Counted from the stretch's first letter, positions 54-11,258 are shown. The stretch: 11,258 nucleotides of DNA from Candidatus Wukongarchaeum yapensis (GCA_016840425.1 JAEOSI010000055.1:1-11258), one strand, 5' to 3'. Numbers and translations: made by a program. Notes: generated by a model not told the origin, from the letters alone.

Positions 54-551
54 TCATTCATAATATTTACTGATTTTCTTATGACCTTTTATCATATACC
101 TCCCTTTTAACGTATCTTCATCCGCCTTGTACGGTATTTTATCAGCTATACCAAGTTTTCTAAGCTCCTCCCTTATCCTCCTCGCATCCTCCTCATCAGT
201 CCAATCATAAGTATAAACACAAATAACCTTCATATCCGGACTAACAGCAAGCGGACTAGGCTTTGCCGTCGAAACCTTCGAACAACCCCCCAACCTCCCC
301 TCTTCCGTAGCCTTCTTAATCTTAGCCCAAACCTCATCCACATTCTTTATATCCACGAACACGAGCCACTTCCCACTACGAGGCGTCGGCTTTGGATACT
401 CGCCCTTTTTACTCCAAGCATAAATCCAATAAACATCCGCCACCTCAGAAGGCTTAGCACCAGAATACGGCGACGATACCTCTCTTTGCCCTTTTTTTCC
501 TTTAACCAAACTAATTTTGTCCGTATCTTCCGAGATTAATGTGTTTTTCAT
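54..551 (-). CDS. DUF1917/Bles03-like protein (eIF4E-like fold family; sometimes labelled putative phosphothreonine lyase domain)
   Basis: Motifs PSEVADVYWIYA, SGKWLVFV, VDEVWAKIKKATEEGRLG, KVST, VICVYTYDWTDEEDARRIREELRKLG and IPYKADEDT match my recollection of DUF1917. The ORF is open to 629, but ATG at 551 has an SD-like AAGGAAG upstream, and the extension overlaps a probable opposite-strand gene remnant. Confidence 0.75.
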   Translation of the reverse strand: MKNTLISEDTDKISLVKGKKGQREVSSPYSGAKPSEVADVYWIYAWSKKGEYPKPTPRSGKWLVFVDIKNVDEVWAKIKKATEEGRLGGCSKVSTAKPSPLAVSPDMKVICVYTYDWTDEEDARRIREELRKLGIADKIPYKADEDTLKGRYMIKGHKKISKYYE

Positions 552-568
552 TGGAAAAACTTCCTTAA

Positions 569-712
569 CAAAAAGTTCCATCAAAACTTTATTTAGTTTT
601 AGTCCATTTTGATAAAAGCGGAAAACCACTTTTCATGGAAATACTTAGAGCCAGTAAAATAATTCCACTAATGGTTGAAGGCTTAGCTAGAAAAGAAGTA
701 ACAGTGCCTTAA
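569..712 (+). pseudogene. Probable C-terminal remnant of a DUF2283-family protein
   Basis: Hand translation between stop 566-568 and stop 710-712 gives QKVPSKLYLVLVHFDKSGKPLFMEILRASKIIPLMVEGLARKEVTVP. LVHFDKSGKPLFMEILRASK resembles the DUF2283 C-terminal pattern (hhhDhDxxGxhhxhEILxAS). There is no start codon or N-terminal half. Not in the supplied ORF track. Confidence 0.5.
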
Positions 713-728
713 TCATGCAACAAACTAC

Positions 729-750
729 AAAAAAAGGGCTAATCTAGCCC
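729..750 (-). terminator. Hairpin plus U-tract (intrinsic-terminator-like) on the - strand
   Basis: Perfect 6-bp inverted repeat GGGCTA-atc-TAGCCC (736-750) preceded by A7 (729-735), which reads as hairpin + T7 on the - strand. The transcript it would end is not identified. Confidence 0.3.
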
Positions 751-944
751 ACCATCCTTCATCCTTAACTTAAAAGTGTCTATTTCTACCTTTTTCTTTT
801 TCAAATTGAAAACATAACACTCAACTTTAAACGGGAATGACAATCCCCTTTTTTTCCTCTTTTCTATGTTTTTCCCTTATAGGGGTGTTTTTAAACCGTT
901 CTCCAACACAAGATAGAAAGAAAAGATTTGTGGAGGGGAAAACT

Positions 945-1880
945 ATGAGTGTTCAAAAAATTGATTCGAGTGAAAACCTCGATCTAAAGCTAAAAAAAGA
1001 AACAAAAGAAGCAGAAGAAAGAAAGAAAAACTACCCCTACAACTATTTGAAAAGAATTCTTGGCAAGTCTCCTGAAGAGTTGGATAAACAGATTAAAGAA
1101 TGGAAAAAAGTAAAAGAAAAGGCTTGGAAAATACCCCTTGAAGCGATAGAAAAAATCATCCCCATAGAGCCATACGATCACGACCCATATAACAGAAAAG
1201 TAATCATCGTAAGAGGGAGAAAATTCCCAACAAGCTACAAAATAGGAGGAACAATATACAGACTAACAGAAAAAGAAACCTTACAACGCGGAAAATGGGC
1301 GATGTGCAAGATCATATACTTCAACAGTATTAGAGTGGGAACGGGAGAAATGCAACTAAGACACCTGAAAAAAGGAATAGAAGAAGCTGTAAAATTAGAA
1401 CACCGAGAAAAAATAAGAAAAGCCCTTGAAGAAAGAAGAAGAGTTCCAGAAAACGTTTTAAAAGACTATCCCAACCTTAAAAGATTAGAAGAACAACTAG
1501 ACTTTAACAAAGGATGGAAAAAACAAACACTAGAAGGACTAGAAAAAATAGCAAAACAATGCAGCAGTGCAGAAGAGTTTGAAAAAAAGGTAAGAACCCC
1601 TGACAAAAAGGATCTCATCTATGGTCCCATATATATTTTCGGCAAAGAAGAATACAGACTAAGAAAATTTAGAGTAAGTAAAAAATTCGATGATAAGTGG
1701 GGCGTCTTACGAATAGCCTATTACGGACAAAAAAATAACTCAGTAGAAAGAGAAAAAGCCCCAGCTTGGTTCGCTCCCCCCATTCACACTTCCCAAAAAG
1801 GAGCCTTAGATGCTTTGTTTAAGAGTCTAGGTATAGAAGACCTGAAAGATTATTGGAGAAAAGTAAACAGGAAAGAGTAA
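945..1880 (+). CDS. Lys/Glu-rich hypothetical protein (311 aa) with motifs resembling phage/MGE polyvalent-protein modules
   Basis: Long open frame. ATG 945 has GGAGGGG at 932-938, whereas the 36 codons from ATG 837 are low-complexity T-rich. Contains EHREKIRKALEERRRVPENVLKDYPNL, IAKQCSSAEEF and LKDYWRKVN. Confidence 0.7.
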   Translation: MSVQKIDSSENLDLKLKKETKEAEERKKNYPYNYLKRILGKSPEELDKQIKEWKKVKEKAWKIPLEAIEKIIPIEPYDHDPYNRKVIIVRGRKFPTSYKIGGTIYRLTEKETLQRGKWAMCKIIYFNSIRVGTGEMQLRHLKKGIEEAVKLEHREKIRKALEERRRVPENVLKDYPNLKRLEEQLDFNKGWKKQTLEGLEKIAKQCSSAEEFEKKVRTPDKKDLIYGPIYIFGKEEYRLRKFRVSKKFDDKWGVLRIAYYGQKNNSVEREKAPAWFAPPIHTSQKGALDALFKSLGIEDLKDYWRKVNRKE

Positions 1881-1988
1881 GAGGGTTCATGAAACCACTA
1901 ATTTCCTGTTTTTAAGTGAAAAATGCTTGGTTGTAACATGTGAGTTAGAAAGCAGAGACATTCACTACTCATCCCCCTTTATAATTGC

Positions 1989-2037
1989 GTTATAGAATAG
2001 TGTTAGAGAACAGTTATAGCGTTAGAGAACAGTTATA
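1989..2037. repeat. Direct repeat GTTAGAGAACAGTTATA x2 plus a degenerate partial copy
   Basis: Exact 17-mers at 2002-2018 and 2021-2037. GTTATAGAATAGT at 1989-2001 matches the first 13 nt at 11/13. Confidence 0.85.
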
Positions 2038-2141
2038 AATTTTCAAAAAGTTCTTTTCAAAACATTCCTTCCCATTTTTCAAAACGTTCTTTGCATGCTT
2101 GACAGACCTTCTGTTTGAAATATTGTCCGTTTGGCAATCTT

Positions 2142-2474
2142 TCAATATAGTATAAGAGGTGTAAATTTTTCACGACAATATTTACAGTCTCCAAATTTTT
2201 GATAGCAATCTAAGCAGAGTGCTGCGACTTCGTATAATCTCCTTGGTTGGTATCCTTTTTCTTCACTTAGTTGTTCCCATTCCCGCGTATCAATTGTTTT
2301 GATTTTACCAGTTGTTATCCATTCTTTTGGTATCTTGAGTTTTGTTGGGTGGAGTATCGTGTCAGCTCCATCTTCTCTTTCTCCATCTGGACAGATTATT
2401 CTCTCTCCTTCTTTGACCTTTTTGCCACACCACCAACATTTATCAATTGTCAGCCTGATTTTTTGAGGAAGCAT
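2142..2474 (-). CDS. Cys-rich putative zinc-finger protein; probably continues to 2057 in the +1 frame
   Basis: ATG 2474 has an SD-like GGTTGAGGGA upstream. CWWC, CLDC and CKYC pairs are present, and a fourth pair (CQAC) lies just downstream in another frame. Confidence 0.6.
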   Translation of the reverse strand: MLPQKIRLTIDKCWWCGKKVKEGERIICPDGEREDGADTILHPTKLKIPKEWITTGKIKTIDTREWEQLSEEKGYQPRRLYEVAALCLDCYQKFGDCKYCREKFTPLILY

Positions 2475-2684
2475 GAGGTATCCCTCAACCTAATGTGCAG
2501 TATTTATTTAAACGAATCTGTTTCGCTTTTTATTACTATAATTTTAACAAATCCTCGTATAATAACTTGGAAGGGATTTATCCTATTAAAAACTTTTAAT
2601 CACCTTTTTTTCTTCAAAATCATCCTCTTTATACTAACAAAAAATTAAAACAAAAAACTTCATATAGAACGAAAAGTTTTTCCA

Positions 2685-2702: not shown

Positions 2703-2843
2703 TACAAAAGGACTTAAATAATGCGTGTTATCTTAAAAAAAAGAAAAAGAAAAGAAAAACGAAAAAAACTTGATTTTATTATATTCAAATTAAAAAGATA
2801 ATTAAGAGATTTTGTTCTTTATTAAAGGAAGGTGAAAGAAAAA

Positions 2844-3590
2844 ATGTTCAGTCCCCAAGGATTAGGATACGACAGGGCAGTAAGCGTTTTTAGCCCAGAC
2901 GGTCGCCTCTTCCAAGTAGAATACGCAATAGAAGCCGTAAGAAGAGGCACAACCGCATGCGGAATCAAATGCAATGAGGGATGCGTACTCGCAGTCGAAA
3001 AAAGACTGCACTCAAAACTAATGGAACCAGAAACAGTAAGAAAAATATTCATGATCGACTCCCACATCGGAGCAGCCATATCAGGCCTAACCGCAGACGC
3101 AAGAGTCTTAATAAACTACGCAAGAATCCAAGCTCAGATATACAGGCTTACTTACGACGAAGCAATGCAAGTGGAGACTCTAACACGGAAATTAGGCGAT
3201 CTCCTCCAGTTATACACCCAACACGGCGGTGTGCGTCCTTTTGGTGTTTCGTTGTTGATTGCTGGTGTTGATATGACTGGTTCTCAGTTGTTTGCTAGTG
3301 AGCCTAGTGGTTCTTATTGGGGTTATCGTGCTGTTAGTATTGGTGGTGGTTCTCAGGTTGCTACGGAGATTTTGGAGGGTAATCATAAGAATGAGATGGC
3401 GTTGGATGATGCTACTGTTATGGCTTTGAGGTCTATTAAGACGGCTATTGAGGGTCCTTTGGATCCTGAGAAGGTTGAGATTGCTGTTATTCCTGCGGAT
3501 GTTATGGTTTTTAAGAAGTTGTCTTTTGGTGAGGTTTCGGAGTATATTGGGAGGCTTGGTGGTGAGGAAGAGGAGAAGGAGGAGGAGTAG
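2844..3590 (+). CDS. psmA: 20S proteasome alpha subunit
   Basis: GYDRAVSVFSPDGRLFQVEYAIEAV N-terminal signature, EKI-like VRKIFMIDSHIGAAISGLTADAR, and RPFGVSLLIAG. ATG 2844 follows the SD AGGAAGGTGA. Confidence 0.98.
   Translation: MFSPQGLGYDRAVSVFSPDGRLFQVEYAIEAVRRGTTACGIKCNEGCVLAVEKRLHSKLMEPETVRKIFMIDSHIGAAISGLTADARVLINYARIQAQIYRLTYDEAMQVETLTRKLGDLLQLYTQHGGVRPFGVSLLIAGVDMTGSQLFASEPSGSYWGYRAVSIGGGSQVATEILEGNHKNEMALDDATVMALRSIKTAIEGPLDPEKVEIAVIPADVMVFKKLSFGEVSEYIGRLGGEEEEKEEE
3227..3228. other. Abrupt amino-to-keto (A/C to G/T) strand-composition switch point inside psmA
   Basis: About 105 of 128 psmA codons before 3228 end in A/C, while 120 of 121 codons from 3228 to the stop end in G/T (hand count). 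Confidence 0.95.
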
Positions 3591-3681
3591 GGTATTGGTT
3601 TTTTGTTTTGTTTTTTTTGAGGTATAGTTGGTTGTTGTAGGTTTTTGGGTTGGGGGGGGTTTGTAGGTTTGGTGATGGTTT

Positions 3682-4410
3682 ATGGCTACTATTCGTGGGG
3701 AAAAGCATGTTGATTTGGGTAAGCGTGCTTTGGCTAGGGTTGTTAGGGATGGGGAGCATTTTGAGGTTATTGTGGATCCTGTTTTGGCGTGGCGTTATCG
3801 TAGGGGTGATGAGAGTGTTGATATTCGTGATGTTCTTGAGGGTTGGGTTGTTTTTAAGAATGCTTTGAAGGGGGAGAGGGCTGGTGAGGAGGTGTTGGTT
3901 AAGGCTTTTGGGACTGATGATGGTTTGAAGGTTGCGGATGTTATTATTAGAGAGGGTGAGGTGCAGCTTACTGTTGAGCAGCGTAGGAAGATGGTTGAGG
4001 CTAAGAGGAAGCAGATTGTTGCGTGGATTAGTAGGAATTGTATTGATCCTGGGAGGGGGGCGCCTCATCCTCCTACTCGTATTGAGAGGGCTATGAATGA
4101 GGCTAGTGTGATTATTGATCCGTTTAAGGATGTTGAGGAGCAGGCTGTTGATGTTGTTAAGGCTTTGATGCCTATTATTCCTATTAGGTTGGAGCGTATG
4201 CTTGTGGAGATGACTTTTCCTCCGCAGTTTTCTGGGAAGGCTTATGGTGTTGTGAGTAAGTATGGTGTTATTAAGGAGGATAAGTGGTTGTCTAATGGGG
4301 CTTGGAATGTTCAAGTGGAGTTGCCTGCTGGTTTGAAGGCGGAGTTGTCTGATGAGGTTAGTAAAATGACGAGGGGAAAGGTTGAGGTTAAAGTTGTTGA
4401 GAGAATGTAA
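3682..4410 (+). CDS. sdo1: Ribosome maturation factor SBDS/Sdo1
   Basis: [67 protein letters not shown] and C-terminal ferredoxin-like domain. GGTGA SD at 3671-3675. Canonical position after psmA. Confidence 0.97.
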
Positions 4411-4653
4411 TAAATATGGGATAGATGAGGTTGTATTGGGTGGTTAATATTTGTGTTGGTGATGTGTTGGGATTTAATCTTTGGAATTTTTTTGTTGCAA
4501 TTTTAGTTGTTATCCGTGTTGGTTTTGTTTTGAAAGTGATATGATGTATGTTTATTTGTTGTTTGTTCGTTGGTTTGTTTGTTATTGATTTTTGGTGTTT
4601 TTTTGTGTAGGTGAAGTGTTTTTGTGTTTTGTTTTTTGAGAGGTGTTTGAGCG

Positions 4654-5433
4654 ATGGGTTATAATAATGGTAATAATGATGATGATGAGGTTGAAGGTAT
4701 TGTCCATGTTGTGGAAACGGAGGAAGGGAAGTTTTTTTTTGAGCGTTTTCAGATTGTTATTCCAGGGACGCTTTTAGGTAAGGGTAGGTTTAAGGCTGGT
4801 GAGGGTTGTTATAGGGAGAATGATGATTTTTATGCTTCTGTTGTGGGTCTTGCGGATTTTAGGGAGGGTTTTATTATGGTTGTTCCTTTGGAGGGTATTT
4901 ATATTCCTAAGGAGGAGGATATAGTTATTGGGACGATTATGGATACCCGTATTACGTCTTGGAGGGTGGATATAAGGGCGCCTTATGAGGCTATATTGAC
5001 GGCGAGCAATTTTTTAGATAAGCCTTTTAGTCCTGTTTATGATGATGTTAGGGATATTTTAAGTATTGGTGATGTTATAGTTGCAAAGATTTTGTCTTTT
5101 GATAGGACTAGGGATCCTATTTTGATGGCTAAGGGGCAGGGTTTGGGGAGGCTTCATTCGGGGCGGATTATTGAGATTCGTCCGACGAAGGTTCCTCGTG
5201 TTATTGGTAAGCGGGGTAGTATGATTAATCTTTTGAAGAGAGAGACAGGATGTAGGATTGTTGTGGGTCAGAATGGTCGTATTTGGGTTAGTGGTAGGAG
5301 TTTTGAGGATGAGTATTTGGTTGTTCAGGCTTTGAAGAAGATAGAGAGGGAGGCGCATACTAGTGGGCTTACTGATCGTGTTAAGGATTTGATAAGGAAC
5401 GAAAAAGAAAGGAGGCATAAGGAGAGTGAATAA
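4654..5433 (+). CDS. rrp4: Exosome RNA-binding cap subunit Rrp4 (S1 + KH)
   Basis: VIPGTLL, YIPKEEDIVIG, S1 region WRVDIRAPY, KH motif VPRVIGKRGSMI, and GQNGRIW. GAGGTG SD at 4640-4645. Confidence 0.97.
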   Translation: MGYNNGNNDDDEVEGIVHVVETEEGKFFFERFQIVIPGTLLGKGRFKAGEGCYRENDDFYASVVGLADFREGFIMVVPLEGIYIPKEEDIVIGTIMDTRITSWRVDIRAPYEAILTASNFLDKPFSPVYDDVRDILSIGDVIVAKILSFDRTRDPILMAKGQGLGRLHSGRIIEIRPTKVPRVIGKRGSMINLLKRETGCRIVVGQNGRIWVSGRSFEDEYLVVQALKKIEREAHTSGLTDRVKDLIRNEKERRHKESE

Positions 5434-6199
5434 CGTGACGTTGGTTAGGAAGGAACCGTCTGAGAGTTTATTTAGGGAAGATGGTTTGAGGTTGGATGGT
5501 CGTGGTTTAGATGAGTTGCGTCCTATAAGGATGGAAGTTGGTGTTTTGAATAATGCTGATGGTTCTGCTTATGTTGAGCATGGGAAGAACAAGATTGTTG
5601 CGGCGGTTTATGGTCCGAGAGAGTTGCATCCGAAGCATTTAGCGTTGCCTGATAAGGCTTTGGTACGTTGTGAGTATCGTATGGCTACTTTTAGCGTGGA
5701 AGAGAGGAAAAGCCCGGCTCCGGGTAGGCGTGAGGTTGAGCTTTCTAAGGTTATCAGGGAGTCTTTAGAGCCGGCGATTTTTGTTTATAAGTATCCTAGG
5801 GCTACTATTGATGTTTTTGTTCAGATACTGCAGGCTGATGGTGGTACGAGGTGTGCTAGTATTACTGCTGCTGCTCTTGCTTTGGCGGATGCTGGTGTGC
5901 CTATGAGGGATTTAGTTGTAGGGTGTGCTGTTGGAAAAATTGAAGGCAAGGTTGCTGTTGATCTGTCTGATGTAGAGGATAAGCTTGGAGAGGGGGATAT
6001 ACCTATGGCTTTAATGCCTACGAAAAAAGTTATAACTTTGCTTCAGTCTGATGGTGATTTTACTCCAGAAGAGTTTAAACAGGCACTGGAGATGGGTATA
6101 GCTGCTTGTGAGAAGATATATGAAATGCAAAGAGATATTTTAATCGAGAGGTATTCAAAGGTTCGTGAAGAAGTTGCTGAGGAACAAGAAGAAGAGTAG
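5426..6199 (+). CDS. rrp41: Exosome catalytic RNase PH subunit Rrp41
   Basis: RLDGRGLDELRPI, ADGSAYVEHGKNKIVAAVYGPRE, RREVELSKVI, QADGGTRCASITAA, and the acidic catalytic segment EDKLGEGD. GTG start (5426 or 5435) overlaps or abuts the rrp4 stop. Confidence 0.98.
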   Translation: MNNVTLVRKEPSESLFREDGLRLDGRGLDELRPIRMEVGVLNNADGSAYVEHGKNKIVAAVYGPRELHPKHLALPDKALVRCEYRMATFSVEERKSPAPGRREVELSKVIRESLEPAIFVYKYPRATIDVFVQILQADGGTRCASITAAALALADAGVPMRDLVVGCAVGKIEGKVAVDLSDVEDKLGEGDIPMALMPTKKVITLLQSDGDFTPEEFKQALEMGIAACEKIYEMQRDILIERYSKVREEVAEEQEEE

Positions 6200-6283
6200 T
6201 TAAAATCGGTTGAAGATTGAGTATTTGTTTGTTTGTTTGTTTTCTTTATTGTTTTTTTGAGTACTATTAGGAGGTAATTTGTT

Positions 6284-7117
6284 TTGGTAGGTTTGAGTGA
6301 AGTTACTTCGGCGATTGAAAGGGAGCATATTTCTTCCCTTCTGGTTCATGGTAAGAGGATAGATGATCGTGGTCTTTTTGAGTTTCGGAATATTGAAGTT
6401 GAGGTTTCCCCTATAGAGAAGGCTGAAGGTTCTGCTCAGGTTGTTTTGGGGGGAACAAAAGTAGTTGCGGGGGTAAAGGTTGATGTAGGCCCTCCTTTTT
6501 CTGATACCCCGAATAAAGGAGTTTTAACTTGTAATGCGGAATTGACCCCTATTGCTTCTCCTTTTTTTGAATCTGGTCCGCCTGATGAGCAAACGGTGGA
6601 GTTAGCTAGAGTTGTTGATAGAGGAATAAGGGAATCGAAGGCTGTGGATTTAGAAAAACTTGTTTTGATCCCGGGTGAAAAAGTTCGGGTTTGTTTTGTA
6701 GACGTTTACGTTCTCGATTATGATGGGAACCTTTTTGATGCTTCAGAAATTGCAGCAAGCGTGGCCTTGATGGCTGCGAAAGTGCCTGAAGTAGAGGTAA
6801 ACGAAGACACTGGCGAGATAACTGTACTGGATAAAAAGCAATTATTGCCTATAAGTAATATACCTGTATCTGCTACCTTTGCAAAAATTGATGGTGTTTT
6901 AGTTTTAGATCCTTGCTTAAAAGAGGAGCGAGTTCAAGATGCTCGTATCACTATGACATCCACTCAGGAGGGGAATATTTGTGCTTTCCAAAAGGGAGGT
7001 ATAGGCACAATAACATTAGAGGATGTTGATACTGTTATAGAGGTAGTAAAAGAAAAAGCAGAACCTGTAAGAGATCTTATAAGAGAGTTAACAAAGGAAG
7101 TAAGAGGAGAAATTTGA
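6284..7117 (+). CDS. rrp42: Exosome RNase PH-like subunit Rrp42
   Basis: GKRIDDRGLFEFR, AEGSAQVVLGGTKVVAGVK, PFSDTPNKG, ELARVVDRGIRES, and VLDYDGNLFDA. TTG start with AGGAGGT at 6269-6275. Confidence 0.98.
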   Translation: MVGLSEVTSAIEREHISSLLVHGKRIDDRGLFEFRNIEVEVSPIEKAEGSAQVVLGGTKVVAGVKVDVGPPFSDTPNKGVLTCNAELTPIASPFFESGPPDEQTVELARVVDRGIRESKAVDLEKLVLIPGEKVRVCFVDVYVLDYDGNLFDASEIAASVALMAAKVPEVEVNEDTGEITVLDKKQLLPISNIPVSATFAKIDGVLVLDPCLKEERVQDARITMTSTQEGNICAFQKGGIGTITLEDVDTVIEVVKEKAEPVRDLIRELTKEVRGEI

Positions 7118-7135
7118 ACCCATTCCATATTTTTT

Positions 7136-7151
7136 CCGAAAATTTAAAAAA
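7136..7151 (+). promoter_or_regulatory. Candidate internal BRE-TATA promoter for rpl37ae
   Basis: CCGAAAA followed by TTTAAAAAA, about 35-45 nt upstream of ATG 7186 and directly after a T-run that follows the rrp42 stop. Confidence 0.5.
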
Positions 7152-7185
7152 TAAAGCGATCTCCATTTGTTAAAAGGTGTTGTCC

Positions 7186-7470
7186 ATGGGGCGTGCTAAG
7201 AAGATAGGCATAGCTGGAAAGTTTGGAACCCGTTACGGGTCAACGCTTCGTAAACGGTTCCGCGACATAGAGGAAAAGATGAAAAAGAAACACACGTGTC
7301 CGTCTTGTTTCACTCGGACGGTGAAAAGAGTTTTTGCTGGAGTTTGGAAATGTAAAAAATGCGGAAGAACCTTTGCAGGTGGCGCCTATTTACCCTTTAC
7401 GGCTGTTGGAAAAAGCATAAAAAGGACTGTAAGACGGATAGAAGAAGAAAAAGAAGAAGAAGAAAAGTGA
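7186..7470 (+). CDS. rpl37ae: 50S ribosomal protein L37ae (eL43)
   Basis: GKFGTRYGSTLRKR, zinc finger CPSC...GVWKCKKC, and FAGGAYLP. ATG 7186 follows AGGTG. Confidence 0.98.
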   Translation: MGRAKKIGIAGKFGTRYGSTLRKRFRDIEEKMKKKHTCPSCFTRTVKRVFAGVWKCKKCGRTFAGGAYLPFTAVGKSIKRTVRRIEEEKEEEEK

Positions 7471-7561
7471 AAAACAAAAAAATGCATGCCTCTTTTCCCG
7501 TTATTTCTGGGTTTTTTCCATGTTTAAGGGATTAGTTTTTCTATATTGAAGTAGGAGGGGT

Positions 7562-7846
7562 TTGGAGCTATTGGGTTCCCTGAATAACGTTAAAAATGAA
7601 TGCCTTATTAAACTCGATTTTGATGATGATTTCGTTGCAAAGTTGATGTTTAAAGCGCTTGGTCCTGAGGCTTCAAGTGTTCTCTTTGAAAGAGTTAAGG
7701 TTTTTTTATCTCTTGAAGGTTGTTCCCTTTTAGTTGCGCTTTCTGCTTCGGATACTGTAGCTCTTAGAGCTGCTATTAATTCTTGGTTAAGGTGGATAAG
7801 CACTTTGGAGAAAGTTTATAACTTATTCGTTAAAAATAAAACGTGA
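7562..7846 (+). CDS. pcc1: KEOPS complex subunit Pcc1
   Basis: ALGPE and C-terminal ASDTVALRAAINSWLRWI motif, size, and conserved position before pfdB. Start is TTG 7562 or 7571, after AGGAGG. Confidence 0.9.
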   Translation: MELLGSLNNVKNECLIKLDFDDDFVAKLMFKALGPEASSVLFERVKVFLSLEGCSLLVALSASDTVALRAAINSWLRWISTLEKVYNLFVKNKT

Positions 7847-7914
7847 ATTTGTTATTTAAGAGGTTTAGACTTCTTTTATGTTGTGTTTATTAGTTGAGTG
7901 AGTGAGTGATGAAG

Positions 7915-8295
7915 ATGGCAACTCCGCAAATATCTCCAGCTTTACAGCAACAGGTTAAGAAGTTTCAAGAGTTACAGATGCAGCTTAACGATCTTAGGGC
8001 TGTTATTGTGCAGCTTGAACAGCAAGTTCGCGAGATTGACCGTTCTTTAAAGGAGCTTGAAAAGCTTCAGTCTGATGATTCTGTGTACAAATCTGTTGGC
8101 GCAATTCTCATCAAATCAAATGTTGAAGACGTTAAAAAAGAGTTAATTGACAGTAAAGAAACAATGGAACTTAGGTTAAAAACGTATAGCAAACAGTTTG
8201 AGAACGCAAAAACCCAGCTGACTTCTTTGAGAGAGAAAATCGTTCAACAGGCCCCACCCTTTGAAGGAGTAGACGGTCCTGATATGGGCGGTTAA
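7915..8295 (+). CDS. pfdB: Prefoldin beta subunit
   Basis: Coiled coil - VYKSVGAILIKS hairpin - coiled coil (ETMELRLKT). Start uncertain among 7906, 7909 and 7915. Confidence 0.95.
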   Translation: MATPQISPALQQQVKKFQELQMQLNDLRAVIVQLEQQVREIDRSLKELEKLQSDDSVYKSVGAILIKSNVEDVKKELIDSKETMELRLKTYSKQFENAKTQLTSLREKIVQQAPPFEGVDGPDMGG

Positions 8296-8299
8296 AATC

Positions 8300-8629
8300 T
8301 TGGTTGCTGATTCGCCTATTCTGCAAAATAAAAAGAAACCCTCTAAGGATTTTGAGATTCTTTTTGAGATCGCGGAAAACGCAGTAAAAGAGCATATTTT
8401 TGCGTGTGTAAAAAAGGTTGAAATAAAAAACCTACAAATAAGTTGTGAATTTGTAATTAATGAAGGCGTAGACCTAACTATTGATGTCAATTTCTCTTTA
8501 GCTAAAGATTCCAAAATTGATGAAAAAAAGCTTGCTAAAGAATCAGTAAACTATGCTTTGAAAAAGATGGATCCAGCTATTGGTGAACTGCTTGAAAAAC
8601 TTAGAAAAAATAAAAGCATTTCTCGATAA
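8300..8629 (+). CDS. DUF3194-like protein
   Basis: EIAENAVKEHIF...IKNLQISCEF...DLTIDV...LAKESVNYA pattern, and the typical position between pfdB and the DHH gene. Confidence 0.7.
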   Translation: MVADSPILQNKKKPSKDFEILFEIAENAVKEHIFACVKKVEIKNLQISCEFVINEGVDLTIDVNFSLAKDSKIDEKKLAKESVNYALKKMDPAIGELLEKLRKNKSISR

Positions 8630-9623
8630 GTTTCGAAACAGTCTAGAAAAAATAAAAAGCAGTTCAAAAGCTTTTATAGGCGTCTCATGCCACCAAAACG
8701 CGGATCCTGACGCGCTAGGATCAGCAATAGCTTTAAAAGAACTCCTAGAGAACCTAAACCCCCAAGTTAGTGTTGAAATTTTCGCCGACTCAATTAACAA
8801 CCCTGCTTCCTACTTAAAAGATTATACAGATACGAAAGTGACAACAGAACCCCTTGAAAAAAACTTAGACCTTCTTTTTATTGTAGACGCTAACAACCTA
8901 GTCCAATTAGGATCCATGTCCCCTCTAGTAGAACTTGCTGAAGAAACAGTGATAATTGATCATCACGAACCCCACTCACAAACTCCTAAAATAACTGACT
9001 ATTTTATAATCTTAGAAGAACTATCCTCCACCTCCGAAATTATTTACCAGCTATTCAAAATGCTAGGAGTAAAAATCTCTCCAAAAAGCGCTTTCGCCTT
9101 AATTGCGGGAATAATTTTTGACACCCGCCGTTTTAGCTTCGCAAGTTCTAACACTTTTTCCATAGTTTCAGACCTCATTCTAAGTGGAGTTAATTATGAT
9201 GACGCCCTATCTCTCTTTGTTTCAGAGATGGATATATCCGAAAAAATCGCCCGTCTAAAAGCAAGTCAAAGAACAAAAATTAAGAGAATCAACGATCTAC
9301 TACTTGTAACATCTGAAGTAAGCACTTACGAAGCTTCCGCCGCAAGAGCTCTCATAGATCTCGGAGCAGACGTCGCAATCATAATCGCAGACAAAGGAAA
9401 AAATGAAGTAAGAGCAAGCTCAAGAGCAAACCCAAAAATGAAAAAAATACAAGGATTTAGCCTAGGAAAAATCATGGAAAAAGCAGGAGAAAAGTTTCAA
9501 GGCGGAGGAGGAGGACACATCTTAGCAGCAGGATTCAAAGGAAAAGGAGACCCAAAAGAAATCATGAAAGAAATAACGGAAAAAATAGAAAAAATAATAA
9601 AAAACTCCCAAAAAAACGCTTAA
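8592..9623 (+). CDS. DHH/DHHA1 phosphoesterase (NrnA/exopolyphosphatase-related family)
   Basis: HQNADPDALGS, VD, IIDHH, GIIFDT and DHHA1 GGGGHILAAG. ORF is open from 8580; TTG 8592 has a GGTGA SD at 8582-8586. Overlaps the end of the DUF3194 gene. Confidence 0.93.
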   Translation: MKNLEKIKAFLDKFRNSLEKIKSSSKAFIGVSCHQNADPDALGSAIALKELLENLNPQVSVEIFADSINNPASYLKDYTDTKVTTEPLEKNLDLLFIVDANNLVQLGSMSPLVELAEETVIIDHHEPHSQTPKITDYFIILEELSSTSEIIYQLFKMLGVKISPKSAFALIAGIIFDTRRFSFASSNTFSIVSDLILSGVNYDDALSLFVSEMDISEKIARLKASQRTKIKRINDLLLVTSEVSTYEASAARALIDLGADVAIIIADKGKNEVRASSRANPKMKKIQGFSLGKIMEKAGEKFQGGGGGHILAAGFKGKGDPKEIMKEITEKIEKIIKNSQKNA

Positions 9624-9668
9624 AACAAATACAAAAAACTAAGAGAATACTAGTAAAAATTTAGAAGA

Positions 9669-10280
9669 CTAAGCAGTCTTTTTATTTTTAACCAGGAAAA
9701 ACTCTACAAGTTTTTTCGATACACCCGTCTCTAATAAAACCTTTTCTATCTCCTTTTCCTCCCCTCCTTCAGCTTTCATCTTCTCATAAAGGAGATGCAA
9801 TGTCTCTAAAACTTCCCAAGGAAAGATCACCCAAACTTCTGTTTCCTTAGCATAATAGTCAGGATCAATTATAGTCCAAGGCTTTTTATACAAAGTTAAA
9901 ATTTTAACCTCTTTTGCCCCTCTCTCTTTCAGCAAAGAATAAATCAAGGCAAGACTCTTACCAGTATCTGCAACATCATCCACAAGTAAAACACTCTCGC
10001 CTCTCACATCTACCCGAAGTCCTTCGCTTATAACAGGCTTATCCCGTGTTTTTGCAACATCTGAGTAAAACTCCACCTTAACGATAGTAAGGTGAATATC
10101 CCGACCAAAATAATCAGAAGCTATCCTAGCAGGAACAAGACCCCCCCTAGAAATACCTACAATCAAAGAAGGTTCAAACCCATCTTCCCTCAACTTCACA
10201 CAAAGGTTTAAAGTCAATTCATACGCTTCATTCCACCCCAAACACTCAAAATTCTGATCTTCCACCAGAAAAAACCCCAC
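9669..10280 (-). CDS. Type I phosphoribosyltransferase, archaeal hypoxanthine/guanine/xanthine PRTase-like
   Basis: IVGISRGGLVPAR, PRPP-binding VLLVDDVADTGKSL, TLYKKP, PDYY and WVIFPWE. Start uncertain (GTG 10280 or 10265). Confidence 0.92.
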   Translation of the reverse strand: MGFFLVEDQNFECLGWNEAYELTLNLCVKLREDGFEPSLIVGISRGGLVPARIASDYFGRDIHLTIVKVEFYSDVAKTRDKPVISEGLRVDVRGESVLLVDDVADTGKSLALIYSLLKERGAKEVKILTLYKKPWTIIDPDYYAKETEVWVIFPWEVLETLHLLYEKMKAEGGEEKEIEKVLLETGVSKKLVEFFLVKNKKTA

Positions 10281-10352
10281 TATTTTTAAAATCCAAACTA
10301 ATTAAAAATAAAAATAAATATTAATCTTTTTTTGGTTTAGAGGTCGAAAAAC

Positions 10353-10934
10353 TTGGAAAAGATAACCGTTACAGGGTTTGAAAACGCAAAAATAGAAGAC
10401 GTTGAAACCTTATTAAAAGAGCTTCAAAAGATAGAAAAAACCCACTCTACAACAATTCAACTCTTTAACAGCAACCTAATCGCCACAAAACAACACCTCT
10501 ATATTAGCGCCTACCACGCCCTCAAAGCCTTTAAAGAAAAAAGAAACATCGCAGATAAAATCAACATGGAAATAATGCTTTACGCCTCAGGACAGCGCCA
10601 AATAGGGAAAGCTATAAGCCTCTTAGGAGTAAAACCAGAAAACAAACAAATAGCAGCAATCATAATCACCAAAGAAAAAAAAGAAAACAACAACAACAAT
10701 AGTAAAGACCATAAAAACGTGATAAAAAAGCTTTTACAACTTTTAAAAGCAAAAGAATCACAAAAAGTTTTAGAAATAACAGAAAAAAAACGAAACATTA
10801 TACTTAAAAAATTCAACATAACAGAAAAAATGCTCGAAGCAACAGCAAAAGAAAAAACAGAAAAAGCCTTAAACAAAGCAATAACCGAACTTATACTAGA
10901 AAAAATAGCCCTTCTAGCCCTAGAAAAAGCATGA
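10353..10934 (+). CDS. cgi121: KEOPS complex subunit Cgi121
   Basis: QLFNSNLIATKQHL...AYHALKAF...EIMLYASGQRQIGKAISLLGVK signature and C-terminal ILEKIALL. TTG start with GAGGT at 10340-10344. Confidence 0.93.
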   Translation: MEKITVTGFENAKIEDVETLLKELQKIEKTHSTTIQLFNSNLIATKQHLYISAYHALKAFKEKRNIADKINMEIMLYASGQRQIGKAISLLGVKPENKQIAAIIITKEKKENNNNNSKDHKNVIKKLLQLLKAKESQKVLEITEKKRNIILKKFNITEKMLEATAKEKTEKALNKAITELILEKIALLALEKA

Positions 10935-11000
10935 AAAAACTGAAAAAAACGAATACTTTTGCTGGTTTAAAAACACCAAAAACAAATAATCTTAATAATC

Positions 11001-11258
11001 TTATGTTTTACGTACTGAAAGTTCTTCTTCTGGTGAATGTATACTGATGCCCGCCCAACCCCCCATTATCTCTATTCTTAGAATTTTATCAGGATTTTTA
11101 AGATCGACCACCCCCCAGTCTATAAGATCCGCAACCTCTCTTATCACCTCATCACTCTCAAGACCCGTAAACCGCTTCCTTAAAGTAACCCTCCACCTCT
11201 CATCCCGAGAAATCTTATGCTTAAGCTTCTCAACACCTTCCTTAATCCTATCCAAATT
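11001..11258 (-). CDS. 3' end of a THUMP-domain RNA-binding protein (Tan1-like), truncated by the window edge
   Basis: Frame is open to the window end. WRVTLRKR...EVIREVADLI...VDLKNPDKILRIEIMGGWAGISI matches the THUMP C-terminal pattern. Confidence 0.8.
   Translation of the reverse strand, partial: NLDRIKEGVEKLKHKISRDERWRVTLRKRFTGLESDEVIREVADLIDWGVVDLKNPDKILRIEIMGGWAGISIHSPEEELSVRKT

What the first reader, a model, noticed from the sequence alone, without database searches (positions are those of the whole stretch)
2844..11258. Kilobase-scale sawtooth strand skew: a one-codon jump inside psmA, then a slow decay
Seen (hand counts of codon third positions ending G/T on + strand genes): about 18% in psmA before 3228, 120/121 after it, about 33/40 at the start of rrp41, about 23/51 at the end of rrp42, about 8/71 at the end of the DHH gene, and about 5/51 at the end of cgi121. 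Spacers follow the same pattern (3591-3681 and 4411-4653 nearly pure G/T; 9624-9668 A-rich). In the A/C zones, minus-strand genes (DUF1917-like, PRTase, THUMP) end codons in G/T, so the bias tracks chromosome strand, not transcription or codon choice. Established: C->T and A->G deamination on exposed single-stranded DNA makes that strand G/T-rich, an A/C to G/T jump has the polarity of a replication origin, and jump-plus-ramp (N-shaped) profiles are known at megabase scale in mammals. Inference: a fixed site near 3228 repeatedly exposes the + strand to the right and the - strand to the left, with variable tract length. Candidates are dense origin firing, recombination-dependent initiation, or a site-loaded helicase/nuclease acting under near-saturating mutation pressure. 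I see no canonical ORB motif or AT-rich unwinding element at the jump itself; the nearest AT-rich tract is about 2490-2830.
Basis: partly seen in the sequence, partly recalled or inferred. Interest (0 to 1): 0.88.

Follow-up and report, generated by a model that had tools for sequence, protein, structure and literature searches.

The report
Kilobase strand-skew sawtooth in Asgard archaeon
Inside an essential proteasome gene of an uncultured Asgard archaeon, the silent DNA positions flip within a few codons from almost only A/C to almost only G/T and drift back over about 6 kb. This is a real, inherited mark of an extremely one-sided mutation process whose cause is still open.

Summary
psmA third positions are 24/132 G/T before 3228 and 119/120 after it (Fisher p 7e-46). 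G/T stays at 0.8-1.0 to about 5900, crosses 0.5 near 7000-8500 and reaches about 0.1 by 9500.

It is not an assembly join. Contigs from three other studies bridge 3228, and a congener (91% identical) has the same jump, about 35 nt further right. Both psmA halves have the same ancestry.

The pattern is genome-wide. Sharp upward jumps outnumber downward ones about 4:1. Jumps average zero between abutting operon genes, grow with spacer length, and are largest between convergent genes and smallest between divergent ones. psmA is a rare mid-gene case.

The trait is lineage-specific among 34 Asgard genomes sampled (two families clearly positive). I found no anchoring motif and no repair-gene loss that tracks it.

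My best reading is C>T plus A>G pressure, at least about 30-fold, on the strand running 5'->3' away from fixed start points. I favour a replication-linked cause (0.35) over R-loops or gene conversion.

The nearest thing in print is GRINS, but this region is not a repeat. This scan has noted similar sawtooths before on other archaeal and bacterial DNA.

The parts
3224..3230 (.). Jump point inside psmA, at codons for QHGG|VRPFG. The + strand switches here from A/C-ending to G/T-ending codons.
   Evidence: Maximum-likelihood change point 3224. Third positions 24/132 versus 119/120 G/T. Bridged by independent contigs. The congener's boundary lies about 35 nt to the right.
2832..3227 (+). 5' half of psmA; A/C-rich at silent sites on the + strand.
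   Evidence: Third-position G/T 0.12-0.25. Four-fold sites A29 C18 T6 G4; two-fold T:C 4:23 and G:A 6:29.
3228..5900 (+). G/T-saturated zone: psmA 3' half, SBDS, rrp4, most of rrp41 and the two spacers 3591-3681 and 4411-4653.
   Evidence: Third-position G/T 0.82-1.00. For 3228-4410, four-fold sites T125 G31 A1 C0 and two-fold T:C 56:0, G:A 101:7. GC skew reaches 0.87.
5901..8600 (+). Decay zone (end of rrp41, rrp42, L37ae, pcc1, prefoldin beta, DUF3194) with small upward resets at spacers.
   Evidence: Third-position G/T falls from about 0.7 to about 0.5, with resets at 6200-6283, 7118-7176 and 7471-7561.
8601..10934 (.). A/C-rich zone (DHH +, PRTase -, cgi121 +), the complement-mirror of the saturated zone.
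   Evidence: Third-position G/T 0.06-0.40 on the + strand whatever the gene strand. For 8630-9623, four-fold sites A68 C31 T33 G7.
9624..9668 (.). Convergent spacer (DHH | PRTase) with a small upward reset.
   Evidence: 0.11 before and 0.38 after. This fits the genome-wide rule that convergent spacers carry the largest jumps.
10935..11000 (.). Convergent spacer (cgi121 | THUMP) with an upward reset.
   Evidence: 0.06 before and 0.53 after.
2076..2475 (-). Segment inverted relative to the congener. It still carries the skew of its former orientation.
   Evidence: blastn: window 2076-2475 matches G001 5471-5067 in reverse. Third-position G/T is 0.52-0.70 inside an A/C zone.

Best explanation
The window records a strongly strand-asymmetric transition pressure: C>T together with A>G on the strand that runs 5'->3' away from a fixed start point. 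At 3228 the pressure ratio flips from about 0.2 to at least about 30-40. To the right it favours the + strand, weakens over about 3-4 kb, and reverses towards the next start point. Selection keeps first and second codon positions, so only silent and spacer sites saturate.

My committed mechanism is replication-linked. DNA synthesis repeatedly starts or restarts at fixed points, most of which lie at the 3' ends of transcription units. From each point, one of two things happens to the outgoing strand. Either it is left single-stranded longest (as lagging-strand template or displaced strand, as in the mitochondrial D-loop) and deaminates, or it is laid down by a low-fidelity enzyme that makes G.T mispairs. 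The chance that a position is copied by a fork from that point falls with distance, which gives a sharp rise and a slow fall.

Shown here: the composition, its polarity, its sharpness, its inheritance, its genome-wide recurrence and its link to the ends of transcription units. Inferred: that the cause is mutation on exposed or newly made DNA. Not shown: that replication, rather than RNA or break repair, supplies the third strand.
For: Both transitions shift together and by similar log-odds. Two-fold T:C is 4:23 and G:A 6:29 left of 3228, against 56:0 and 101:7 to the right. The genome baseline is T/C 1.86 and G/A 0.52. Spacers share the bias. The bias ignores gene sense. The jump is sharp and the decay slow. 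Genome-wide, upward jumps exceed downward ones 153:34, and the jump statistic has positive skewness from 100 to 1600 nt. The jump is present in a second species, with the boundary shifted by about 35 nt and raised divergence at the boundary. An inverted segment keeps its old skew, so the bias depends on position and is written slowly. Jumps are absent between abutting operon genes (0.008 +/- 0.013) and rise with spacer length to 0.17. They measure 0.17-0.27 at convergent spacers and 0.02-0.07 at most divergent spacers (81-600 nt). Budding-yeast origins show the same placement rule: near gene 3' ends, between convergent or tandem genes (PMC4991242; PMC10945306). The sense strand is A/C-rich in or beside the most highly transcribed units, namely the 16S upstream region, the L4 operon and actin. 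That argues against simple deamination of the non-template strand.
Against: There is no AT-rich unwinding element, repeat family or significant hairpin at 3228. No palindromic 4- or 6-mer anchors jumps. Spacers next to the three orc1/cdc6 genes show only ordinary jumps. The implied density, about one clear jump per 13 kb, has no precedent in archaea, where 1-4 origins are the norm (my own knowledge). Genes are not co-oriented with the implied fork direction (mean sense G+T 0.48). The polarity is equally predicted by the rival mechanisms. No replication or repair gene tested tracks the trait.
Confidence: 0.35

Rival explanations
1. Transcription-linked displacement (R-loops). Untranslated RNA, such as read-through past terminators, antisense transcripts and leaders, re-anneals to its template and leaves the non-template strand single-stranded from a fixed 5' start to variable 3' ends. 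That strand deaminates. G enrichment of the displaced strand may stabilise further R-loops, producing self-reinforcing domains with sharp walls.
For: Resets follow transcription-unit architecture and not translation units: zero at abutting operon genes, rising with spacer length. The order convergent > tandem > divergent fits read-through from a neighbour running antisense into a gene's 3' end. It could explain a mid-gene start and a boundary that drifts by tens of nucleotides. RNA-library contigs do cover parts of 3726-5454. The organism lives in sediments, where slow growth (my own knowledge) would make non-replicative damage dominant.
Against: The largest saturated zone in the window is sense-strand G/T over translated genes. 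Highly expressed units show the opposite, with sense A/C in the 16S upstream region, the L4 operon and actin. There is no overall excess of G+T on the sense strand (0.48). Promoter-bearing divergent spacers have the smallest jumps. G/U-rich RNA is not the purine-rich type that forms the most stable hybrids (my own knowledge). RNase HII is present, and RNase HI is absent from positive and negative genomes alike.
Confidence: 0.25
2. Break repair or gene conversion between chromosome copies, with a GRINS-like origin. Recurrent nicks or breaks at fixed sites are resected, and the resected strand is refilled 5'->3' away from the break by an error-prone polymerase that favours G.T mispairs. The result spreads among genome copies by conversion.
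For: The composition matches GRINS: intense, correlated GC and TA skews, strongest at third positions, changing abruptly inside functional genes (window values 0.53 and 0.23, r 0.43). The GRINS authors propose G.T-type misincorporation and gene conversion, and they note skewed regions present in only one copy. A hot spot of structural variation lies just upstream: a 2.1-kb presence/absence difference among strains and an inversion. Two intragenic jumps sit in the most conserved protein motifs, where recombination junctions would concentrate.
Against: The region is single-copy in the assembly. Deamination of the resected 3' tail would give the opposite polarity, so the model needs the misincorporation assumption. 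Polyploidy is unknown for this lineage. The Y-family polymerase is absent from the closed positive genome G037.
Confidence: 0.2
3. Recombinant patch. The right part of psmA and the downstream genes were imported from another lineage or paralogue, or were inverted between paralogues, and the donor had the opposite skew.
For: The junction is razor-sharp in G000 and lies in a conserved motif. Half-gene trees place the genus differently, with weak support of about 0.70.
Against: Both halves are closer to paralogue A than to B in most of the genomes that carry both (seven of ten: N half 0.69-0.73 versus 0.60-0.63; C half 0.44-0.53 versus 0.41-0.44). The C/N identity ratio is 0.71 against 0.76 among other Asgard genomes. 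Gene order is the conserved superoperon order. This does not explain the decay, the mirror zone or the genome-wide asymmetry.
Confidence: 0.03
4. Selection on codon usage or mRNA properties, or an assembly or sequencing artefact.
For: Third positions carry most of the signal. Within genes, sense G+T falls 5'->3' by 0.10 on average.
Against: Spacers share the bias. Minus-strand genes follow the + strand. No reset occurs at translation starts inside operons. One gene carries both extremes. The sequence recurs in contigs from other studies and in a second species, and runs of 14 studies hold at least part of the stretch.
Confidence: 0.02

Closest known systems
[quoted passage not shown]
   Same: Intense, positively correlated GC and TA skews (G+T versus A+C). 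They are strongest at third codon positions, change abruptly within about 1 kb, occur inside functional genes and shift amino-acid use slightly. The mechanism is unknown.
   Different: GRINS are defined as duplicated regions (>80% identity to another copy) and are tied to gene conversion in PKS genes, transposases and bacteria. Here the region is single-copy, consists of core housekeeping genes of an archaeon, includes spacers, and is organised as a genome-wide sawtooth locked to transcription-unit ends. The paper does not mention archaea.
Mammalian skew N-domains (Touchon 2005 and Huvet 2007, cited from my own knowledge)
   Same: Sharp upward skew jumps with origin polarity, followed by a gradual decline to the next jump. 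The pattern does not depend on gene orientation.
   Different: The scale here is about 5-10 kb rather than about 1 Mb. The amplitude is saturating (silent sites 99% G/T) rather than a few percent. No replication data exist for this organism.
Vertebrate mitochondrial H/L strand asymmetry (my own knowledge; related work PMC8565317, listed)
   Same: C>T and A>G on the same strand, graded with position, and attributed to time spent single-stranded after displacement from a fixed start.
   Different: That is one gradient per 16-kb circle with a known replication mode. Here there are many bidirectional centres in a 2-Mb chromosome. The local asymmetry (at least about 30-fold by my estimate) appears larger than in mitochondrial DNA.
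Placement of budding-yeast replication origins (PMC4991242, PMC10945306)
   Same: Sites lie in spacers near gene 3' ends, and are preferred between convergent or tandem genes over divergent ones.
   Different: In yeast the sites are mapped origins with ORC and Mcm binding. Here only a compositional footprint is known, and the flagship site is inside a gene.
Published view of archaeal skews (Paravel et al. 2026, PMC12999951)
   Same: It addresses codon-position-specific and non-coding skews in archaeal chromosomes.
   Different: [quoted passage not shown] It mentions neither Asgard archaea nor kilobase-scale saturated zones. The present pattern is a strong local counter-example.

Membership tests
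GRINS | Mean absolute GC and TA skews above 0.15 over more than 500 bp | tested here: met
   For 3228-7000, mean |GC skew| is 0.53 and mean |TA skew| is 0.23 in 150-nt windows.
GRINS | GC and TA skews positively correlated, strongest at third codon positions of functional genes | tested here: met
   Pearson r 0.43. Third positions are 119/120 G/T in an intact psmA.
GRINS | Duplicated region, >80% identity to another copy in the same cluster or genome | tested here: not met
   blastn of the window against the whole assembly finds only a 246-nt and a 43-nt match elsewhere, neither in 2844-7400. The assembly is 92% complete.
Archaeal replication origin (oriC type) | Skew jump with origin polarity (A/C to G/T on the + strand) | tested here: met
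Archaeal replication origin (oriC type) | AT-rich unwinding element and repeated origin-recognition boxes at the site | tested here: not met
   GC is about 0.45 at 3000-3450. Only low-complexity A/T repeats occur 400-600 nt upstream, with no repeat family at the jump and no significant fold (z -0.57).
Archaeal replication origin (oriC type) | Adjacent orc1/cdc6 gene | tested here: not met
   No such gene in the window. The three orc1/cdc6 loci of the genome show only ordinary jumps.
Archaeal replication origin (oriC type) | Physically mapped initiation of DNA synthesis | not testable with these tools
   Only assembled contigs of public runs were available.
Skew N-domains | Sharp upward jumps and gradual declines, genome-wide | tested here: met
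   Up:down 87:18 to 169:49 at 150-300 nt. Positive skewness at 100-1600 nt.
Skew N-domains | Jumps coincide with replication initiation zones | not testable with these tools
   No replication profiling exists for this uncultured organism.
Transcription-associated strand asymmetry | Excess of G+T on the coding strand of transcribed genes | tested here: not met
   Mean sense-strand G+T at third positions is 0.484 and the distribution is symmetric. The 16S upstream region, L4 and actin are sense A/C-rich.
Transcription-associated strand asymmetry | Jump located at transcription start sites | tested here: not met
   Divergent spacers of 81-600 nt give the smallest jumps (0.02-0.07) and convergent spacers the largest (0.17-0.27).
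Enzymatic DNA deaminase footprint (CDA fold) | A zinc-deaminase gene with the H/C-A-E ... P-C-x-x-C motif in the genome | tested here: not met
   A six-frame motif scan of the whole assembly gave four chance-like hits, none deaminase-like. A motif scan cannot exclude other folds.

The most novel reading that the evidence does not exclude
Some Asgard archaea replicate, or restart replication, from hundreds of dispersed sites that sit mainly at the 3' ends of transcription units, as budding-yeast origins do. On this reading the kilobase sawtooth is a fork-direction profile written into the genome by extreme single-strand damage during very slow growth. Eukaryote-like dispersed initiation would then predate eukaryotes and could be read from sequence alone.
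Probability: 0.15. Interest if true: 0.95.

Novelty: new variant of a known kind. Interest (0 to 1): 0.72.

Why it matters
Recent literature holds that archaea barely make strand-specific mutations (PMC12999951). This Asgard lineage instead shows local strand asymmetry of at least about 30-fold, strong enough to fix every silent site of several essential genes.

The pattern is a free, sequence-only map of where one DNA strand is habitually exposed or newly made in an uncultured relative of eukaryotes. Its link to transcription-unit ends makes concrete models testable with existing raw reads and enrichment cultures. The models are dispersed initiation, transcription-replication conflict, R-loops and gene conversion.

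There are practical consequences too. Such zones distort codon-usage, dS and phylogenetic analyses, create long spurious antisense ORFs (for example 3511-4314 on the minus strand), and may fragment assemblies.

The finding also extends the unexplained GRINS phenomenon from bacterial repeats to single-copy archaeal core genes.

Tried and rejected
- The search for related loci on genome contigs found no psmA relative. Relatives were obtained with the genome search instead.
- Chimeric join: rejected.
- Recombinant or paralogue-chimera origin of psmA: both halves are paralogue-A type. The half-gene trees differ, but only with weak support.
- Motif anchoring: no palindromic 4- or 6-mer is associated with jumps beyond AT-rich words. 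GGCC is slightly negative in this genome.
- Hairpin at the boundary: not significant. Repeats near it are low-complexity only.
- Loss of deamination or mismatch repair: UDG, EndoV and NucS are present in positive genomes. PolY, RNase HI, RNase HII, PolD and Orc1/Cdc6 copy number do not track the trait. Only five genomes were compared.
- CDA-fold deaminase motif: none found.
- Functions of genes in saturated zones: no common theme.
- tRNA metagene: my parsing returned only 4 tRNAs, so it is uninformative.
- Divergence around orthologous jumps: only 6 pairs, with a slight rise at the boundary that is confounded with spacers.
- RNA-library contigs do not cover 3009-3384, and only trace depth lies on the rest of psmA's 5' half. 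Absence in contigs is not evidence.
- My first amino-acid-composition gene caller failed and was replaced. The final set covers 73% of the genome and misses short genes, so some "intergenic" calls are uncertain.

Full report
**What the window is.** The window is the whole of contig C6 of a 2.16-Mb, 277-contig, 38% GC metagenome-assembled genome. Pfam identifies the conserved archaeal proteasome/exosome superoperon. On the + strand it reads psmA 2832-3590, SBDS 3682-4410, rrp4 4654-5433, rrp41 5426-6199, rrp42 6284-7117, L37ae, Pcc1, prefoldin beta, DUF3194, a DHH phosphoesterase and Cgi121. A Bles03-like gene, a phosphoribosyltransferase and a THUMP gene lie on the minus strand. Notes from other windows of the same genome (actin, cofilin) and the kinship table place it in the Asgard archaea.

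**Check of the observation.**
- psmA third positions are G/T in 24/132 before 3228 and in 119/120 after it (Fisher p = 7e-46).
- In 40-codon blocks the value is 1.00 over 3314-3551 and 0.90-1.00 through SBDS. It is about 0.9 in rrp4 and 0.6-0.97 in rrp41. It falls through 0.5 in rrp42 to DUF3194, and reaches 0.11 at the end of DHH and 0.06 at the end of cgi121.
- Spacers share the bias: 3591-3681 has no C and only 7 A.
- Minus-strand genes follow the + strand value.
- Left and right zones are complement mirrors. Four-fold sites are A29 C18 T6 G4 on the left and T125 G31 A1 C0 on the right.
- From the two-fold classes (T:C 4:23 and G:A 6:29 left; 56:0 and 101:7 right; genome baseline 1.86 and 0.52) I estimate the strand-asymmetry factor. 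Taken as the square root of the product of the two ratios, it goes from about 0.2 to at least about 30-40 within a few codons. This estimate is my inference from those counts.

**It is real DNA, and inherited.**
- Runs from 14 studies of marine sediment, mangrove and marsh hold at least part of the stretch; six runs hold half or more of its sampled words.
- Contigs from three other studies bridge 3228: X3 covers 2795-3556 with no difference, X6 covers 2905-3501, and X7 covers 2828-4839.
- A second species of the same genus (G001, about 91% nucleotide identity) has the same profile.
- In G001 the boundary is fuzzier and lies about 35 nt further right. Divergence is high over 3140-3260 and very low just after it, as expected when silent sites are locked by the bias.
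- Eighteen other Asgard psmA loci show nothing comparable.
- The two psmA halves have the same relatives and the same paralogue type, so a recombinant patch is not supported. The half-gene trees differ, but only with weak support.
- Window 2076-2475 is inverted relative to G001 and still carries the opposite skew. The bias therefore depends on position and is rewritten slowly.

**Genome-wide context.**
- Sharp upward jumps outnumber downward ones about 4:1 at 100-800 nt, and the jump statistic is positively skewed up to 1.6 kb. This asymmetry is unchanged by reverse complementation, so it is a true sawtooth.
- Gene sense does not predict skew: mean sense G+T is 0.484.
- Of 93 strong upward jumps, 77 are intergenic and most of the rest lie at gene edges. 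psmA is the only clearly mid-gene case among the top 60.
- The average jump decays within about 500 nt.
- Kilobase-scale saturated zones are few. They include 4.3 kb upstream of the 16S rRNA gene, the L4 region of a ribosomal-protein operon, and actin. All three are A/C-rich on the sense strand.

**The most informative result.** I measured the mean jump across gene boundaries at third positions, 50 codons each side.
- Tandem genes that abut or overlap: 0.008 +/- 0.013.
- Tandem genes with spacers: rising to 0.17 at 151-300 nt.
- Convergent pairs: 0.17-0.27 at any spacer length.
- Divergent pairs: 0.02-0.07 for spacers of 81-600 nt, which are most of them (0.14 in the 14 pairs with 31-80 nt).

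So the resets are not tied to translation or codon ramps, and they are not centred on promoters. They sit at the 3' ends of transcription units.

**Distribution and candidate causes.**
- I scored a sawtooth index on samples of 34 Asgard genomes: the sd of G+T skew in 300-nt windows, plus the up:down jump count. It is high in the window's genus (0.146-0.149) and in another family that includes a closed 3.6-Mb genome (0.130-0.135). It is intermediate in two genomes. It is near baseline (0.06-0.10) in the rest, including the only other member of the same order.
- No palindromic word anchors jumps, and GGCC does not.
- Among the five genomes compared, UDG, EndoV, NucS, RNase HII and PolD are present in the positive genomes. 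PolY, RNase HI and Orc1/Cdc6 copy number do not track the trait.
- No CDA-fold deaminase motif exists in the assembly.
- Spacers beside the orc1/cdc6 genes show only ordinary jumps.
- At 3228 there is no AT-rich element, repeat family or significant fold.

**Mechanism.** What the data require is C>T plus A>G pressure on the strand running 5'->3' away from a point with a sharp start and variable reach. Several processes have that geometry:
- the lagging-strand template, or a displaced strand, beyond an initiation or restart site;
- the leading-strand template behind a fork arrested at the site, after nascent-strand resection;
- error-prone fill-in (G.T mispairs) after resection from a break;
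- the non-template strand of an R-loop.

I favour a replication-linked cause (0.35) for three reasons. The bias ignores gene sense and is even reversed at the most transcribed units. Promoter-bearing divergent spacers are the weakest sites. [quoted passage not shown]

R-loops from untranslated read-through or antisense RNA (0.25) explain the same order and a mid-gene start. They fit poorly with a sense-G/T zone over translated genes and with sense-A/C zones at highly expressed genes.

Break repair or gene conversion of the GRINS type (0.20) is kept alive by three points. The composition is identical. A structural-variation hot spot lies just upstream. Two intragenic jumps sit in highly conserved protein motifs: QHGG|VRPFG in psmA, and apparently DEPT|GDLD in an ABC ATPase, the latter by my hand translation only.

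**Comparison with what is known.**
- GRINS (PMC8256042) is the nearest thing in print. It shows the same correlated GC/TA skews at third positions of functional genes, and its mechanism is unknown. Its defining repeat criterion fails here, because the region is single-copy. The paper does not treat archaea, spacers or a sawtooth.
- N-domains share the shape, but not the scale or amplitude.
- Mitochondrial asymmetry shares the two transitions and the gradient.
- A 2026 survey concludes that archaea have little strand-specific mutation, which this lineage contradicts locally.
- This scan has already noted similar sawtooths in other archaeal and bacterial genomes. The present window is therefore a very clean instance of a recurring and still unexplained phenomenon, not a unique object.

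**Verdict.** I class the finding as a new variant of a known kind, with high but not maximal interest because the mechanism remains unresolved.

Noticed in passing
window 509-2640: Strain-level structural variation just upstream of psmA. Contigs from two other samples join 508/510 directly to 2640/2641, skipping about 2.13 kb. The congener lacks gene 837-1880 (347 aa, no Pfam match) and has 2076-2475 inverted.
   Followed up: partly
L026 (G000 contig C165) 8700-13038, next to 16S rRNA at 13039-14575: About 4.3 kb upstream of the 16S gene is almost pure A/C at silent and non-coding sites on the rRNA sense strand (GatD third positions 0.00-0.08 G/T). This includes the immediate 5' flank. The 3' flank of the 16S gene is G/T-rich, as the two arms of a processing stem would be.
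   Followed up: partly
L029 (G000 contig C147) about 1931, and window 3224: Two intragenic jumps fall in highly conserved protein motifs: apparently the ABC ATPase Walker B/D-loop (DEPT|GDLD, by my hand translation only, not checked with a tool) and proteasome alpha QHGG|VRPFG. This may be coincidence or a recombination-junction effect.
   Followed up: no
G000, all contig ends: Contig ends more often carry jump-consistent skew. In the last 1 kb, 7.6% of contigs are below -0.2 and 1.1% above +0.2, against about 4% each in contig interiors. Assemblies may tend to break at jumps.
   Followed up: partly
window 3511-4314, minus strand: A 267-aa ORF with no Pfam match lies antisense to psmA and SBDS. 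It is an artefact of the A/C-only complement strand, which lacks stop codons. Saturated zones will generate spurious long ORFs in automatic annotation.
   Followed up: yes
window 3726-5454, 6259-6537, 7146-7389, 9315-9583, 10636-10846: Contigs from a metatranscriptome library (95-99% alike) lie on parts of the operon. Strand and transcript ends cannot be read from contigs.
   Followed up: no
window 5426-5433: rrp4 and rrp41 overlap by 8 nt. Across this junction third-position G/T goes from 0.65 (last 20 codons of rrp4) to 0.82 (first 40 of rrp41). Genome-wide, abutting genes average no reset.
   Followed up: yes
G037 (closed 3.6-Mb Asgard genome of another family), five 20-kb samples L071-L075: The sawtooth statistics are similar to this genome (sd 0.135, 5 up and 0 down strong jumps in 100 kb). 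The phenomenon is therefore not an artefact of fragmented bins.
   Followed up: partly
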